Positions 1 to 32,589 are shown, counted from the first letter of the stretch. The stretch is DNA of 64,000 nucleotides from an uncultured Pseudomonadota bacterium (GCA_963778795.1 CAVZVU010000001.1:1777574-1841573); one strand, 5' to 3'. Notes: a model not told the origin generated them from the sequence alone. Program-made: numbers and translations.

Positions 1-943
1 GCACGTTGTCGGTGGGACCACCGCTCTCGTAGCTGCCGGCCGGTCCCGGGGAGATGGGATCGCGGAGCGCGGCGTTCGCATAAAGCGGCAACGGATACTC
101 CGCCTTTCCTGCCGCGGCGATCTCGCCGATGTAGCGGGCCACGGCCCAGGCATGGAAGTACTCGTCGGCGTCGTTGCCGAACACCTCTTTCCAGCCGGCG
201 GTCGGGGCGCGGGGCTTCTTGTTCATCGCGGCCAGCACGTCGGCCGGCACCGGGCTGTCGAAGGCCTTCTGCGCCGCCGGCCAGTAGTCACGGATGGCGC
301 CCCAGGTGCCCGCTTCGTTCTCGACCTGCACCATGATGACGGTGTGTTGCGGGTCGATCGTCTTCAGGTGGCGCATCAGCGCGACGAAGGCGCGCTTGTC
401 GGCTTCGAGCATCTCCCTCGAGAACGGCGACGCCGAGTCGACCGGCCGCCCGTTCGCGCCGATCATCCTTCCGGGCGCATCGATCTTCGGATCCTGCTTG
501 ATCCACAGCGGCACATAGTGAGGACTGCCATTCTTCCAGGTCGCGAACCAGAGCAGGACCAGGCGGACGTCGTTCTTGCGGCACTGGTTGACGAGAGCAT
601 CCACCACCGCGTAATCGAACACCCCGGGCCGCGGCTCGAGTTGTTCCCAGTAGACCGGCATTTCAACGGTGTTGGCGTGGAGGGCTTTGACGGCCGGCCA
701 GACCTGCGGCATCACGCCTGGCCACGCGCTGGAATTGTTGATCTGCGCCCCCAGGATCAGAAACGGCGCACCGTCGACCAGCAGGGCGTGGCGTCCCTCC
801 TTGTGCACCAACCGCGGCAGGGCAGGGGGGGCCGCCCCGGCGTTTGTGCCCGCGGGCAATCCAAGCAGACAACCAATCAGCAGCGGGAGAGCGCGTGTTC
901 GCGAGAGGGACCATCGACGATTTGTACTACGGGCGGCCGCCAA
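1..943 (-). CDS. clan GH-A glycoside hydrolase (beta-galactosidase-like, GH35/GH42-like TIM barrel), N-terminal part; continues beyond left edge
   Basis: Hand translation of minus strand gives a signal peptide (SLSRTRALPLLIGCLLGLPAGTNA) then ...LILGAQINNSSAWPGVMPQVWPAVKALHANTVEMPVYWEQLEP...LLWFATWKNG...VIMVQVENEAGTWG...YIGEIAAAGKAEYPLPLYANAALRDPISPGPAGSYESGGPTDNV. The VENE acid/base motif is typical of clan GH-A. The long + strand ORF 152..949 is its antisense shadow. The start is uncertain (candidate TTG ~943; an ATG at 914 is in another frame). Confidence 0.6.
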   Translation of the reverse strand, partial: MAAARSTNRRWSLSRTRALPLLIGCLLGLPAGTNAGAAPPALPRLVHKEGRHALLVDGAPFLILGAQINNSSAWPGVMPQVWPAVKALHANTVEMPVYWEQLEPRPGVFDYAVVDALVNQCRKNDVRLVLLWFATWKNGSPHYVPLWIKQDPKIDAPGRMIGANGRPVDSASPFSREMLEADKRAFVALMRHLKTIDPQHTVIMVQVENEAGTWGAIRDYWPAAQKAFDSPVPADVLAAMNKKPRAPTAGWKEVFGNDADEYFHAWAVARYIGEIAAAGKAEYPLPLYANAALRDPISPGPAGSYESGGPTDNV

Positions 944-2441
944 CGGTGATCTCCGTGATCGCGGGGCTGCCGTTGGCGGCGCGGATCTCGAAGCGCACGT
1001 AGCGCGCGGGCGTGGGGCCAAAGGTGGTGACCTTCATTCGGCCGTCGGCCGGCCAGGTTCCCGCGGTGGCCTCGCTGAAGTTGCTGCCGTCGGTGCTGGT
1101 GAGAACCCGGTACGAGGTCACGTTTCCGTCCTTGCTGCTTTTCTCGTAGTGGTAGCGCGGCACGACGCCGAGCCAGCCGACGTCGGGCAGGGGTTGCACC
1201 GGGCCGAGATCGAGGGTGATCGACTGCGGCAGCGCGCCGGTGGGCTGCCACATGCTGATGAACTCCGTGTCGTTCTTGCCGTCGATCGCGGCGTTCGCGT
1301 CTCCGCTGCTGGCGGTGGCCGACACCGGCGTGTAGGGGTGCTCGTTCTGCGGCGGCTGCGGCGGCAGGGGCGGACGCGCGCCGTTCGGGGTCCAGGCCGC
1401 GCCCACGCCCCGCAGCAGGGTGACGATCGCCGGGGCCATGATGCCGTCGCGGTTGGGCGGGCAGTTGAGCAGGAAGTTGGTCCACTTCGGTTCCAGGTCT
1501 TCGCAGGTGCTTGGTGACCACGTCGGCGACCGTCATCAGGCCGCCGACGTCGGGCGCCCAGAACCAGTCGTTGCCGCCGGTGGCATTCACCTTTTGCTCC
1601 TGCTGGGCCGGGTAGGTGTTGCCGGCCGGCGCCCAGCCCCCCCGCGGCTCTTCGAAGTTGACGATGTCCATGTCCCAGGGATCGGCCAGATGCGCGTGAT
1701 CGGTCAGCAGGCAGTTCGGTTGCAACGATTTCACCAGACCGCGGATCTCCTGGTACGCCATCGGCGTTGTGGCCCATCTGCCAGGACCAGCCGTCGACGA
1801 TCAGGATGGGAATCGGACCGTAGTTGGTGAGCAGCTCGGTGATCTGGGTCTTGACGTACGCGAGCTTGGCGGGCGTGAGGTGTCCGGCGCTGACGTCCGC
1901 CGTGGTGTCCCAGATCGAGTAGTAGAGACCGGGGAGAAGGCCGCGGCTGCGGAACGCGTCCACGTACTCGCGCACGACGTCGCCCTTGCCGTTGCGCCAG
2001 GGAATGTGACCCACGTTGAAATCGCCGGCCTTGCTGGGCCACAGGGCGAAGCCGTCGTGGTGGCGGGTGGTGAGCACGCCGTACTTCATCTTGGCCGCCA
2101 CCGCGGCGTCGGCCCACTGGCCGGGATTGAGGCCGGTCGGGTTGAACAGCTTGATGTCCAGGTTCGGCTTCGACCACGAGCCGGTATAGGTGAGGATCCC
2201 GAAGTGCATGAACATGCCGAAGCGCAGGTCGACGAACTCGCGCTGAAGCTGTTCCAGCGGCTTGGCGGGGCCAAGGCTCGCGTGGGCTGTCGCGACAGCC
2301 TCATTTCCGTTGCGCGCGGTGGGACTCCCGTTGTCGGTCGCTGACGGCTGCGCGCGATGGGCACAACTCAAAGGCGCCAGCATTGCGCCAATTGCGAACC
2401 ACGCGGAGCCAGAACGGGCACGGGCGGCAGAACGAATCATT
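927..2441 (-). CDS. alpha-L-fucosidase (GH29) with C-terminal F5/8 type C (discoidin) domain; two internal frameshifts (~1505, ~1770)
   Basis: Signal peptide MIRSAARARSGSAWFAIGAMLAPLSCAHRA, then the GH29 hallmark FGMFMHFGILTYTGSW...HHDGFALWPS...YGPIPILIVDGWSWQMG. The frame switches to AYQEIRGLVKSLQPNCLLTDHAHL...DPWDMDIVNFEEP, then a third frame CEDLEPKWTNFLLNCPPNRDGIMAPAIV. The C-terminal discoidin domain reads NAAIDGKNDTEFISMWQ...YVRFEIRAANGSPAITEI. Confidence 0.85.
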
Positions 2442-2604
2442 GGGGGCCTCTCTGGGATCGAGGAGACGAGGCGCGCAGTGTACTCCCCAACTGAAGTCGC
2501 GCGCGTGGAACGTGCAACGTGCAACGTGCAATGTGGAAGTTGGGCTGGCAATCCGAGCTTCGCTCGTGGACAATCGCGCCACTTTTCTGGAGGCATCGCC
2601 CCGA

Positions 2605-32400: not shown

Positions 32401-32442
32401 GCGGAAGCGGAGGACGAAGCGAGCGCGGAAAGAGTTGTTCAT
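29414..32442 (-). CDS. GH2 beta-galactosidase-family glycoside hydrolase; frameshift ~31700
   Basis: N-terminus MNNSFRARFVLRF...LLDFGWKFHLG...WRRVDLPHDWAVE...YDITDV (sugar-binding domain, ORF 31717..32616). Catalytic part in 29414..31693: [28 protein letters not shown]...ASVAIWSLANEE...MSAYDDNQTDW...GGFVWTGFDYRGEPTPYQWPCINSHFGILDTCGFPKD, with further C-terminal beta-sandwich domains. Confidence 0.85.
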
Positions 32443-32589
32443 GCGGTAGCTCCGGCGTTGAGTCGCCGCACTATATCGAAATGAGCTGATTTGTCGTTTC
32501 GTCGCTGCTGCAGTGGGTGCCGAGGATCGCCTGCACGGCCGGGGAACAACGGGAAGAGCCGTCATCTCCACGAGCGATTCGACCAAGGT

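What the first reader, a model, noticed from the sequence alone, without database searches (positions are those of the whole stretch)
1..32445. Complete xyloglucan-saccharification enzyme set organised as a PUL-like locus in a high-GC, Myxococcota-like genome
Within 32 kb the enzyme complement matches every bond in fucogalactoxyloglucan. Present are two tandem GH74 xyloglucanases, a GH31 enzyme with a PA14 insert (the same unusual architecture as the Bacteroides ovatus XyGUL alpha-xylosidase), a GH29 alpha-fucosidase, GH2 and GH-A beta-galactosidase-like enzymes, a GH3 beta-glucosidase and an SGNH esterase (candidate xyloglucan deacetylase). Next to them sit a CUT2 monosaccharide ABC transporter and an SSS Na+/sugar symporter. 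Xyloglucan utilisation loci are well described for Bacteroidota and Cellvibrio; an equivalent, differently built locus in this lineage appears undescribed.
Basis: partly seen in the sequence, partly recalled or inferred. Interest (0 to 1): 0.78.

Follow-up and report, generated by a model that had tools for sequence, protein, structure and literature searches.

The report
Myxobacterial xyloglucan locus with sugar-porin cassette
A soil myxobacterium (class Polyangia) carries a gene cluster with the enzymes needed to dismantle the plant cell-wall polymer xyloglucan, apparently wired to an uncharacterised outer-membrane uptake module (two maltoporin-like channels plus sugar-binding lipoproteins) instead of the TonB-dependent transporters used by all xyloglucan loci described so far.

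Summary
Window 1-32,442 encodes GH35 (cut by the window edge), GH29, GH31 with a PA14 insert, an SGNH esterase, a CUT2 ABC transporter, DUF6786, an SSS symporter, two tandem GH74s, GH3 and GH2. GH74, GH31 and GH35 match the characterised xyloglucan enzymes of Bacteroides, Xanthomonas and Cellvibrio end to end.

This cassette-GH74 block recurs in Polyangia MAGs and soil or peat contigs. It often lies directly after the orthologous GH31, and GH35-GH29 sometimes lie upstream. No TonB-dependent transporter, SusC/D pair or GH95 is present.

The roughly 30 frame breaks are most likely Nanopore assembly errors rather than pseudogenes. Sister Nanopore MAGs show the same breaks, and Illumina orthologues are intact.

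The GH29 alpha-1,2-fucosidase role and porin-mediated oligosaccharide uptake are inferences. No paper in the searched library describes such a locus in Myxococcota.

Verdict: a new variant of a known kind (xyloglucan utilisation locus), of moderate-to-good interest.

The parts
1..925 (-). GH35 beta-galactosidase. Only the N-terminal ~290 residues are present, because the gene runs off the left edge of the window.
   Evidence: Pfam Glyco_hydro_35/42. PDB best hits are Xanthomonas XyGUL GH35 7kmn (2e-109) and Cellvibrio Bgl35A 4d1i (3e-92). The acid/base motif VQVENE is present. The N-terminus reads ..LLIGC.
927..2440 (-). GH29 alpha-L-fucosidase with a C-terminal F5/8 type C (CBM32-like) domain and a lipoprotein-type signal peptide (..LAPLSC). 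It carries 2 frame breaks.
   Evidence: Pfam Alpha_L_fucos 5e-36 and F5_F8_type_C 2e-14. PDB best hits are 5k9h and BiAfcB 3mo4. Orthologues at 79-89% identity sit next to GH35/GH31 in L090, L094, L104, L106 and L108.
2605..5500 (+). GH31 alpha-xylosidase with a PA14 insert and a Sec signal peptide. It carries 6 frame breaks.
   Evidence: Five Pfam GH31-associated domains including PA14. End-to-end match to BoGH31A 5jou (7e-256), Xanthomonas 7kmp and CjXyl31A 2xvg. The WWLDAPEP and WSGDI catalytic motifs align with BoGH31A.
5741..6851 (-). SGNH/GDSL carbohydrate esterase. Its C-terminal tail has a Gly/Ala/Thr-rich linker, a Cys motif, a hydrophobic stretch and an Arg-rich end.
   Evidence: Pfam Lipase_GDSL_2 6e-16. 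NCBIfam matches the acetylxylan esterase AxeA1 C-terminal domain at 5e-40. The tail was read. Orthologues lie near GH31 in L089, L106 and L108.
6972..8129 (+). Two tandem paralogous small lipoproteins (6972-7535 and 7590-8129) of unknown function.
   Evidence: No Pfam or NCBIfam hit. Orthologues lie in the same neighbourhood in L009, L089, L090, L106 and L112.
8763..12317 (-). CUT2-type monosaccharide ABC importer. The permease lies at ~8763-9730, the double ATPase at ~9740-11290 and the RbsB-like binding lipoprotein at ~11310-12317. It carries about 5 frame breaks.
   Evidence: Pfam Peripla_BP_4, 2x ABC_tran and BPD_transp_2. NCBIfam nearest matches are RbsB/AlsB, below cut-offs. The block is syntenic in L005-L010.
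12390..13560 (+). DUF6786 protein with 1 frame break.
   Evidence: Pfam DUF6786 4e-146. It always lies beside the ABC operon in Polyangia relatives. In L007-L010 it is followed by an L-fucose-type catabolic operon.
13544..15508 (-). SSS-family Na+/solute symporter (13796-15508, 3 frame breaks) plus a 68-residue membrane protein (13544-13751).
   Evidence: Pfam SSF 4e-51. NCBIfam sss superfamily. Both are conserved next to the cytochrome c gene in L001, L002 and L006-L010.
15646..16185 (+). Monohaem c-type cytochrome (CAKCH), the first gene of the conserved cassette.
   Evidence: Pfam Cytochrom_C 3e-07. It is present at this position in L001-L004 and L006-L009, and within 1.5 kb after GH31 in 16 of 26 metagenome loci.
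16346..19447 (+). Two paralogous outer-membrane beta-barrel proteins. OM-A lies at 16346-17924 and is frame-broken. OM-B lies at 17942-19447 and is intact. Both are predicted to be 18-strand sugar-porin-like channels.
19455..21403 (+). Two lipoproteins of unknown fold: lipoC (19455-20372) and lipoD (20456-21403).
   Evidence: No family hit. Both have a lipobox Cys. They are weakly related to each other (hhalign probability 57%, E 1e-4) and not detectably to lipoE. Their positions are conserved in L001-L004 and in metagenome loci.
21437..22190 (+). lipoE, a lipoprotein with a beta-sandwich carbohydrate-binding-module fold. It carries 2 frame breaks.
22190..26955 (+). Two tandem GH74 xyloglucanases. 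GH74-1 lies at ~22190-24600 with 5 frame breaks. GH74-2 lies at ~24600-26955 with 1 frame break at ~25433. Both have lipoprotein-like N-termini.
   Evidence: PDB hits are GH74 enzymes, apart from one weak BNR-repeat hit (3b7f, E 2.5e-16) for GH74-2. An intact orthologue, P0122, is about 92% identical. The RTDVGGAYR and GD..GFRHDD motifs are conserved in both copies.
26960..29279 (+). GH3 exo-glycosidase, a candidate beta-glucosidase, with about 5 frame breaks.
   Evidence: Pfam GH3 N-terminal, C-terminal and Fn3-like domains. PDB best hit is 8va7, followed by beta-glucosidases. NCBIfam is ambiguous. The SDW nucleophile motif is present.
29414..32442 (-). GH2 beta-galactosidase-like enzyme with 1 frame break at ~31738.
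   Evidence: Pfam GH2 N-terminal, central, TIM, DUF4982 and C5 domains. PDB best hits are the beta-galactosidases 7cwd and 4ypj.

Best explanation
This is a xyloglucan utilisation locus of an uncultured Polyangia (Myxococcota) soil bacterium, recovered in a frameshift-prone long-read assembly.

Proposed mechanism (everything after the family assignments is inferred):
1. Lipoproteins of the cassette, at least lipoE with its CBM30/CBM11-like fold, hold xyloglucan at the cell surface.
2. The two lipoprotein-type GH74 endo-xyloglucanases cut the backbone into Glc4-based oligosaccharides.
3. These pass the outer membrane through a pair of paralogous 18-strand, maltoporin/ScrY-like channels. This replaces the SusC/D or TonB-dependent transporter of known loci.
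4. In the periplasm the SGNH esterase removes acetyl groups. GH29 removes fucose, GH35 and/or GH2 remove galactose, GH31 removes xylose and GH3 removes glucose.
5. The monosaccharides enter the cell through the CUT2 ABC transporter and the SSS symporter.

The cytochrome c that heads the cassette has no assigned role.
For: Shown:
- Family and clade assignments.
- Catalytic motifs are intact in the stitched proteins (direct reading).
- The cassette cyt c - OM-A - OM-B - lipoC - lipoD - lipoE - GH74(-GH74) is conserved in L001-L004 and L006-L009.
- Among 34 close GH31 orthologues from metagenomes, 16 of 26 have the cytochrome c gene directly downstream. 12 of 17 with enough sequence carry porin plus GH74. 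5 of 24 have GH29 upstream, usually with GH35 beyond it.
- In 46 GH31 loci of other lineages the cassette is absent (0 of 14), although GH74 or GH3 still follow GH31.
- OM-B has an 18-strand barrel fold closest to LamB and ScrY.
- A distant member of the OM-B family is the last gene of a LacI/CUT1 sugar-importer operon.
- lipoE has a CBM fold and some members match the SGBP-B xyloglucan-binding domain.
- Relatives insert an L-fucose-type catabolic operon between DUF6786 and the symporter. One relative carries GH95, a SASA esterase and GH42 beside its cassette.

Frame breaks as assembly errors:
- The window's own public gene calls are fragments (P0079, P0136).
- Sister MAGs are Nanopore-only Flye/Medaka assemblies, and one of them (L006) shows the same density of breaks in the orthologous genes. 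Illumina contigs L007 and L008 do not.
- Unrelated genes are also broken.
- Identity to orthologues is unchanged across the breaks, and no in-frame stops were seen.
Against: - No enzyme, porin or binding activity has been measured, and the organism is uncultured.
- GH29 resembles alpha-1,3/4-specific GH29-B enzymes. All xyloglucan fucosidases listed in the review consulted are GH95.
- Xyloglucan oligosaccharides are branched and about 1-1.4 kDa, which is large for a LamB-type pore.
- Foldseek ranks the exporter AlgE and the MOMP porin about as high as LamB.
- lipoC and lipoD have no demonstrated fold or relationship to lipoE.
- The window's own lipoE copy does not reach any Pfam threshold.
- The locus changes strand at least six times and has no recognisable regulator, so co-regulation is unproven.
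- Frame breaks are 4-7 times denser in the locus than in the rest of the window, and they do not sit at homopolymers.
Confidence: 0.7

Rival explanations
1. The locus is decaying. The ~30 frameshifts are real, so the xyloglucan genes are pseudogenes in this genome.
For: There are 39 same-strand frame switches in 1-32,449 against 13 in the rest of the window. After removing gene boundaries this is about 1.1 per kb against 0.15-0.26 per kb. The breaks are not associated with homopolymers.
Against: - No in-frame stop codons or large deletions were seen, and identity to orthologues (80-93%) is the same on both sides of each break.
- Catalytic motifs are intact.
- Genes outside the locus are also broken, including a P-type ATPase and a histidine kinase.
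- The sister Nanopore MAG L006 shows equal break density in the orthologous ABC, SSF and porin genes, whereas Illumina contigs L007 and L008 are intact.
- The source catalogue reports Nanopore indel errors.
- Thirty indels without accompanying nonsense substitutions is not what natural decay looks like.
Confidence: 0.06
2. This is a general plant-cell-wall CAZyme island, not one functional unit. Only the GH74 cassette is xyloglucan-specific. GH29, GH2, GH3, the SGNH esterase, the ABC transporter and the SSS symporter serve other glycans (N-glycans, arabinogalactan, xylan, beta-glucans) and sit together by chance or by general selection.
For: - In L005-L010 none of GH31, GH29, GH35 or SGNH lies within 10 kb of the ABC/DUF6786 block.
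- GH3 and GH2 do not flank the cassette in L001-L004.
- GH29 is GH29-B-like.
- The SGNH esterase is nearest an acetylxylan esterase.
- GH3 is ambiguous.
- There are several strand switches.
Against: - GH31 and GH35 belong to xyloglucan-specific clades.
- GH31 lies directly upstream of the cassette in 16 of 26 contigs, and the GH35-GH29 / GH31 arrangement recurs.
- GH3 and GH2 accompany this type of GH31 in other lineages too.
- Fucose catabolic genes and GH95 appear beside the cassette in relatives.
Confidence: 0.14
3. The two barrel proteins and the lipoproteins are not an import route. They might form an export or anchoring device, for example an AlgE- or Wzi-like polysaccharide exporter, or a secretion and surface-display platform for the GH74s.
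Against: - The neighbours are hydrolases, a CBM lipoprotein and importers, with no glycosyltransferases or polymerases.
- A distant family member sits inside a LacI/SBP/permease import operon.
Confidence: 0.1

Closest known systems
Xanthomonas citri xyloglucan utilisation locus (XAC1768-1777; Vieira et al. 2021, PMC8245568)
   Same: A Gram-negative, non-Bacteroidota locus that combines GH74, GH31 (PA14 type), GH35 and an acetylesterase. The three glycosidases are the nearest or near-nearest solved homologues of the window's proteins (7kn8, 7kmp, 7kmn).
   Different: Xanthomonas uses two TonB-dependent transporters, a GH95 fucosidase, a CE20 esterase and an MFS transporter. The window has none of these. 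It has two LamB-fold barrels, three lipoproteins, a cytochrome c, GH29, an SGNH esterase, GH2, GH3, an ABC transporter and an SSS symporter.
Bacteroides ovatus XyGUL (Larsbrink et al. 2014), including SGBP-A/B and BoGH31A
   Same: BoGH31A is the best solved match for the GH31. GH2 and GH3 are also part of that locus (my knowledge of the Larsbrink 2014 paper, not read here). The logic is shared: a surface endo-xyloglucanase, surface glycan-binding lipoproteins and periplasmic exo-enzymes. lipoE family members touch the Pfam SGBP_B_XBD model.
Cellvibrio japonicus xyloglucan locus (TBDT-GH31-GH35-GH95; PMC4285296)
   Same: It shares a clustered triad of alpha-xylosidase, beta-galactosidase and fucosidase. 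CjXyl31A and CjBgl35A are close homologues.
   Different: In Cellvibrio the endo-xyloglucanases are unlinked, uptake is by a TonB-dependent transporter and the fucosidase is GH95. Here GH74 and the uptake cassette are linked, and GH29 takes the fucosidase position.
Sugar-specific porins inside catabolic regulons (LamB in the mal regulon, ScrY, chitoporin ChiP)
   Same: OM-B has an 18-strand barrel fold closest to LamB and ScrY. Its gene lies next to the hydrolases and importers for the same glycan. A distant relative sits in a LacI/ABC sugar operon.
   Different: There is no sequence-level membership: no Pfam LamB or porin hit. The proteins are about 500 residues and occur as a conserved paralogue pair. 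The putative cargo is a branched heptasaccharide to nonasaccharide, which has not been demonstrated for this fold.

Membership tests
Glycoside hydrolase family 74 (xyloglucanases) | End-to-end sequence similarity to characterised GH74 catalytic modules (two seven-bladed propellers) | tested here: met
   GH74-2 matches 6p2m (3e-183), 2cn2, 6mgj, 7kn8 and 5fkr over residues ~75-785. GH74-1 matches 6p2m at 6e-141. The only non-GH74 hit at the thresholds used is a weak BNR-repeat match (3b7f, E 2.5e-16) for GH74-2.
Glycoside hydrolase family 74 (xyloglucanases) | Conserved catalytic Asp-containing motifs | tested here: inconclusive
   RTDVGGAYR and (M/V)GD..GFRHDD are conserved in both copies and aligned with 6p2m. 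I did not map them to published catalytic residue numbers.
Glycoside hydrolase family 74 (xyloglucanases) | Hydrolysis of the xyloglucan backbone | not testable with these tools
   This needs a recombinant enzyme assay.
GH31 xyloglucan alpha-xylosidase clade (BoGH31A / CjXyl31A / XacXyl31) | GH31 TIM barrel with a PA14 insert in the N-terminal domain, and full-length similarity to the characterised alpha-xylosidases | tested here: met
   Pfam finds PA14 at residues 196-327 between Gal_mutarotas_2 and the TIM barrel. Matches are 5jou 7e-256, 7kmp 2e-255 and 2xvg 5e-230, with the next GH31 at only 6e-84.
GH35 xyloglucan beta-galactosidase clade (XacGalD / CjBgl35A) | Sequence similarity to the clade, and the catalytic acid/base and nucleophile | tested here: inconclusive
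   The N-terminal 273 residues match 7kmn at 2e-109 and 4d1i at 3e-92, and the acid/base motif is present. The half of the protein carrying the nucleophile lies outside the window.
Xyloglucan alpha-1,2-L-fucosidase | Membership of GH95, the family of all xyloglucan fucosidases listed in the review consulted | tested here: not met
   The only fucosidase in the window is GH29, and it is nearest GH29-B alpha-1,3/4 enzymes. The review tables list XXFG/XLFG activity under GH95. The function may still be supplied by GH29, because the GH35-GH29-GH31 arrangement is conserved.
Bacteroidota-type polysaccharide utilisation locus (PUL) | Adjacent SusC-like TonB-dependent transporter and SusD-like lipoprotein | tested here: not met
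   Pfam found no TonB_dep_Rec, Plug or SusD domain in any stitched protein of 1-32.4 kb.
Proteobacterial XyGUL (Xanthomonas / Cellvibrio type) | A TonB-dependent transporter encoded with the GH31/GH35/fucosidase genes | tested here: not met
   None is present in the window, nor in L001-L004 according to the precomputed Pfam annotations.
Xyloglucan utilisation locus (functional definition) | An endo-xyloglucanase, alpha-xylosidase, beta-galactosidase, beta-glucosidase and a sugar uptake system encoded together and conserved across genomes | tested here: met
   Families. Conservation.
Xyloglucan utilisation locus (functional definition) | Induction by xyloglucan and a requirement for growth on it | not testable with these tools
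   The organism is an uncultured MAG, and no expression data were examined.
Maltoporin / sugar porin family (LamB, ScrY) | 18-stranded antiparallel beta-barrel | tested here: met
Maltoporin / sugar porin family (LamB, ScrY) | Sequence-family membership (Pfam LamB or other porin models) | tested here: not met
   No Pfam hit at E<=0.01 and no NCBIfam hit. Identity to LamB in the structural alignment is 13%.
Maltoporin / sugar porin family (LamB, ScrY) | Trimeric channel with an aromatic 'greasy slide' and saturable oligosaccharide permeation | not tested
   No multimer model was built and channel residues were not mapped. A biophysical assay is required.
Surface glycan-binding protein B xyloglucan-binding domain (Pfam PF18329) / CBM beta-sandwich | Profile match above the gathering score | tested here: inconclusive
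   Three orthologues score 28.4-31.2 bits against a cut-off of 26.4. Three others score 15-16 bits or nothing. The window's stitched lipoE fragment gave no hit. A family profile against PDB sequences found nothing significant.
Surface glycan-binding protein B xyloglucan-binding domain (Pfam PF18329) / CBM beta-sandwich | Beta-sandwich CBM fold | tested here: met

The most novel reading that the evidence does not exclude
The seven-gene cassette (cytochrome c, two LamB-fold barrels, three lipoproteins, GH74) would be a previously unrecognised, TonB-independent glycan capture-and-import apparatus of Polyangia. That would make it a third architectural solution to polysaccharide utilisation in diderm bacteria, beside SusC/D and proteobacterial TonB-dependent transporters. 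It would move branched xyloglucan oligosaccharides through a hetero-oligomeric sugar porin. GH29 would have displaced GH95 as the xyloglucan fucosidase, and the dedicated cytochrome c would play a redox or sensing role.
Probability: 0.3. Interest if true: 0.75.

Novelty: new variant of a known kind. Interest (0 to 1): 0.56.

Why it matters
Xyloglucan is a major hemicellulose of primary plant cell walls and is also exuded by roots. Its bacterial turnover has been explained mechanistically only for Bacteroidota, a few Gammaproteobacteria and Firmicutes.

Polyangia are abundant soil, peat and deadwood degraders, but their hemicellulose systems are unstudied. Current surveys even file their GH74 genes as cellulases.

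A conserved, lineage-specific locus would do three things:
- assign a substrate to hundreds of 'hypothetical' metagenome proteins (627 clusters at 50% identity for the barrel family alone);
- give testable candidates for a non-TonB route for large branched oligosaccharides across an outer membrane;
- offer a candidate GH29 that acts on plant alpha-1,2-fucosides.

It is also a caution for annotators. In the public assembly these genes are split into fragments by indel errors.

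Tried and rejected
1. Three exact look-ups of the window's own proteins were tried to identify the source record (TetR ORF, P0079, P0136). None was on record. The source is therefore inferred only from relatives and from the 1,842,842-bp contig noted.
2. I tested whether frame breaks sit at homopolymers. They do not: mean longest run 3.31 at breaks against 3.32 in the background. 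That specific error model is not supported.
3. DUF6786 was tried as a marker for xyloglucan loci and rejected. It occurs in Planctomycetota, Verrucomicrobiota, Acidobacteriota and Bacteroidota without xyloglucan-gene neighbours.
4. A lipoE family profile searched against PDB sequences gave nothing significant.
5. hhalign of lipoC and lipoD against lipoE was not significant, and lipoC against lipoD was only weak. I therefore do not claim three CBM lipoproteins.
6. The repaired SGNH C-terminal tail was searched against NCBIfam for a MYXO-CTERM-type sorting signal, with no hit.
7. NCBIfam and Pfam found nothing for the five cassette proteins or the two small lipoproteins.
8. Contexts of two further distant barrel homologues (P0424, P0439) were on contigs too short to be informative.
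9. tRNA and Rfam scans of the window found nothing.
10. A simple GC3 filter for gene calling failed because of the frame breaks. It was replaced by a codon-model Viterbi that allows frame switches.

Full report
**What is in the sequence.** The window is 64 kb at about 68% GC, with no tRNA or Rfam feature. Plain ORF lists are unusable, because the coding frame on one strand changes every few hundred bases. A codon-usage Viterbi that permits frame switches gave clean pseudo-proteins that read through the breaks.

**Family assignments, left part.**
- a GH35/GH42-like fragment at 1-~925(-);
- GH29 with an F5/8-C domain at 927-2440(-);
- GH31 with a PA14 insert at 2605-5500(+);
- an SGNH esterase at 5741-6851(-);
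- a CUT2 ABC transporter at 8763-12317(-);
- DUF6786 at 12390-13560(+);
- an SSS symporter at 13796-15508(-).

**Family assignments, right part.** Two BNR/Sortilin-type proteins lie at ~22190-26955(+), GH3 at ~26960-29279(+) and GH2 at 29414-32442(-).

**Are they the xyloglucan versions of those families?**
- Both BNR proteins match solved GH74 xyloglucanases over their full length: Caldicellulosiruptor 6p2m, C. thermocellum 2cn2, Paenibacillus 6mgj, Xanthomonas 7kn8 and Cellvibrio 5fkr. E-values are 1e-183 and 1e-141. The only other hit at the thresholds used is a weak BNR-repeat match (3b7f, E 2.5e-16) for GH74-2.
- The GH31 aligns end to end, PA14 insert included, with the three characterised xyloglucan alpha-xylosidases: BoGH31A (7e-256), Xanthomonas 7kmp and Cellvibrio Xyl31A. 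The next GH31 is 170 orders of magnitude weaker.
Its best matches are the xyloglucan beta-galactosidases of the Xanthomonas and Cellvibrio loci.
- GH2 is nearest beta-galactosidases.
- GH3 is nearest an uncharacterised GH3 and then beta-glucosidases, and NCBIfam cannot decide its specificity.
- The esterase is nearest the SGNH domain of an acetylxylan esterase.
- GH29 is the weak link. It resembles alpha-1,3/4-type GH29-B enzymes. The xyloglucan fucosidases listed in the review I consulted are all GH95.

**The frame breaks.** There are 52 same-strand frame switches, 39 of them in the first 32.4 kb. After removing true gene boundaries, about 30 lie inside locus genes.

They look like assembly indels, not decay:
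- Intact orthologues align contiguously across every break at 80-93% identity with no stop codons.
- Genes unrelated to the locus are broken as well.
- The window's own public gene calls are fragments on a 1.84-Mb NCBI/ENA contig (P0079, P0136).
- The nearest genomes are Microflora Danica Nanopore-only Flye/Medaka MAGs. One of them (L006) shows the same density of breaks in the orthologous genes, whereas Illumina contigs (L007, L008) are intact.

Two things remain unexplained. The breaks are not at homopolymers, and they are several-fold denser in the locus than in the rest of the window. Mis-recruitment of reads from closely related co-occurring populations during polishing is a possible cause, but I could not test it.

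Between the symporter and the GH74s lie seven genes with no Pfam or NCBIfam family apart from a small monohaem cytochrome c:
- cytochrome c at 15646-16185;
- two proteins of about 510 residues at 16346-17924 and 17942-19447;
- three lipoproteins at 19455-20372, 20456-21403 and 21437-22190.

Exactly this order, followed by one or two GH74 genes, is found in four long metagenome/MAG contigs anchored on GH74 (L001-L004). It is also found in the Polyangia MAGs anchored on DUF6786 (L006-L009).

**The two large cassette proteins.** They are paralogues (26% identity, E 7e-18). Orthologues have signal peptides and end in ..YITF and ..TFWW.
- An AlphaFold model of the intact copy (pLDDT 71, pTM 0.74) is a large beta-barrel.
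- Foldseek agrees on the 18-strand class and gives ScrY and LamB the highest TM-scores, but it does not separate them from AlgE or MOMP.
- A profile of the family finds 627 clusters at 50% identity among 1.84 billion representatives.
- One distant member is the last gene of a LacI - SBP - permease sugar-import operon.

**lipoC and lipoD.** I could not show that these share the lipoE fold.

**Is the enzyme set genuinely linked to the cassette?** A metagenome scan with the GH31 returned 80 loci.
- Among the 34 close orthologues (77% identity or more, GC 0.64), 16 of 26 with enough downstream sequence have the cytochrome c gene within 1.5 kb.
- 12 of 17 with at least 9 kb downstream carry porin plus GH74.
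- 5 of 24 have GH29 directly upstream, usually with GH35 beyond it, as in the window. SGNH and the small lipoproteins also recur.
- Among 46 more distant GH31 loci (GC 0.585, evidently other phyla) the cassette never appears. GH74 follows GH31 in 7 of 24, and GH3 follows it in 4 of 27.

The enzymes therefore travel together widely, while the cassette is specific to this lineage.

**Flanks vary among relatives.**
- In several, an Amidohydro_2 - SDR - MR_MLE - FAA_hydrolase operon lies between DUF6786 and the symporter. By my knowledge of the Xanthomonas pathway, this is the gene set of non-phosphorylative L-fucose catabolism.
- One single-GH74 version is flanked by GH42, GH5, a CUT1 ABC transporter, a SASA esterase and GH95.
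- In the MAGs anchored on DUF6786, GH31, GH29, GH35 and SGNH are not within 10 kb. The window's particular arrangement is one of several.

**Mechanism.** The family and clade assignments, the synteny and the two predicted folds are shown. The following steps are inferred:
1. Surface capture of xyloglucan by lipoE, and perhaps lipoC and lipoD.
2. Backbone cleavage by the two GH74s. Their N-termini look like lipoprotein signals.
3. Passage of the oligosaccharides through the OM-A/OM-B channels.
4. Periplasmic deacetylation and stepwise removal of Fuc (GH29), Gal (GH35/GH2), Xyl (GH31) and Glc (GH3).
5. Monosaccharide uptake by the ABC transporter and the symporter.

I put about 0.8 on 'xyloglucan utilisation locus', about 0.45 on porin-mediated uptake and about 0.4 on GH29 being the xyloglucan fucosidase. 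The cytochrome c is unexplained.

**Comparison with known systems.** The Xanthomonas locus (two TonB-dependent transporters, GH74, CE20, GH35, GH31, GH95) and the Cellvibrio locus (TonB-dependent transporter, GH31, GH35, GH95) are the closest in enzyme content. The B. ovatus XyGUL is the closest in logic. The window fails the defining transporter features of all three: no SusC/D pair and no TonB-dependent transporter. It also lacks GH95. It works like a XyGUL but is not a member of either described architecture.

**Novelty.** Full-text searches found no paper linking xyloglucan loci or GH74 function to Myxococcota. The 2025 myxobacterial CAZyme comparison treats GH74 as a cellulase. The 2026 Microflora Danica Myxococcota preprint does not mention xyloglucan. 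The library is incomplete, so this is absence of evidence.

**Verdict.** It is a new variant of a known kind.

Noticed in passing
window 12390-13560 (+); L007-L010; L011-L084: In Polyangia, DUF6786 (E 4e-146) always sits beside the CUT2 ABC operon. In four relatives it is followed by an Amidohydro_2 - SDR - MR_MLE - FAA_hydrolase operon that looks like non-phosphorylative L-fucose catabolism. The family is also common in Planctomycetota, Verrucomicrobiota, Acidobacteriota and Bacteroidota (40-57% identity) without xyloglucan genes nearby. It may have a sugar-metabolic role.
   Followed up: partly
window 15646-16185 (+): A small monohaem c-type cytochrome (CAKCH; lipobox in orthologues) is invariably the first gene of the porin/lipoprotein/GH74 cassette. 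No oxidative CAZyme (LPMO or AA family) was seen in the locus, so its role is unexplained.
   Followed up: partly
window 6972-7535 and 7590-8129 (+): Two tandem paralogous lipoproteins of about 160 residues have no Pfam or NCBIfam family. Orthologues recur next to SGNH/GH31 in several metagenome contigs.
   Followed up: partly
window 5741-5900 (-): After one frame repair, the SGNH esterase ends in a Gly/Ala/Thr-rich linker, a GCAC motif, a hydrophobic stretch and RRRRS-stop. From memory this resembles a MYXO-CTERM-type sorting signal, but NCBIfam gave no hit.
   Followed up: yes
window 1-32449 versus 32450-64000: Frame breaks are about 1.1 per kb in the xyloglucan locus and only about 0.15-0.26 per kb in the rest of the window. 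They are not at homopolymers. If they are assembly errors, this local concentration is unexplained.
   Followed up: partly
window 41657-48071 (-): A protein of more than 1,700 residues is built of repeated ASH/HYDIN/Cep192-type Ig-like domains. A 370-residue lipoprotein of the same type lies next to it.
   Followed up: partly
window 50773-51179 and 63574-63979 (+): Two HxlR-like regulator paralogues have nearly identical N-terminal halves and lie 13 kb apart. The first is followed by an SRPBCC-like gene (domain assignment from reading the sequence, not tested).
   Followed up: no
window 52115-54774 (+) and 61361-62870 (+): A P-type ATPase is broken at ~53848 and a PAS histidine kinase is broken three times. 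This shows that the indels are not confined to the CAZyme genes.
   Followed up: partly
L004 (ERZ26871208 contig_42863), 1-22328: A more distant relative carries a single-GH74 version of the cassette. It is flanked by GH5, GH42, a CUT1 oligosaccharide ABC transporter, a SASA-type esterase and GH95. This is an alternative accessory set for the same core.
   Followed up: partly
L005 4312-6755 (-): A GH12 enzyme with Cys-rich STIG1-like repeats lies next to a lipoD-like protein, upstream of the ABC/DUF6786 block in a sister MAG.
   Followed up: no
L165 (Ga0255657_121690) 1381-9344: A distant member of the barrel family (P0470) is the last gene of an operon with the order LacI, unknown 615-residue protein, SBP_bac_1, two permeases. 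This suggests the family serves as sugar porins for other substrates as well.
   Followed up: partly
L114, L120, L122, L128, L133, L134, L144, L145; L137, L142, L161-L164: In other soil lineages (GC about 0.585), a GH31 of 58-67% identity is followed directly by GH74 or by GH3, sometimes with GH2 nearby. These are further undescribed compact xyloglucan gene pairs.
   Followed up: no
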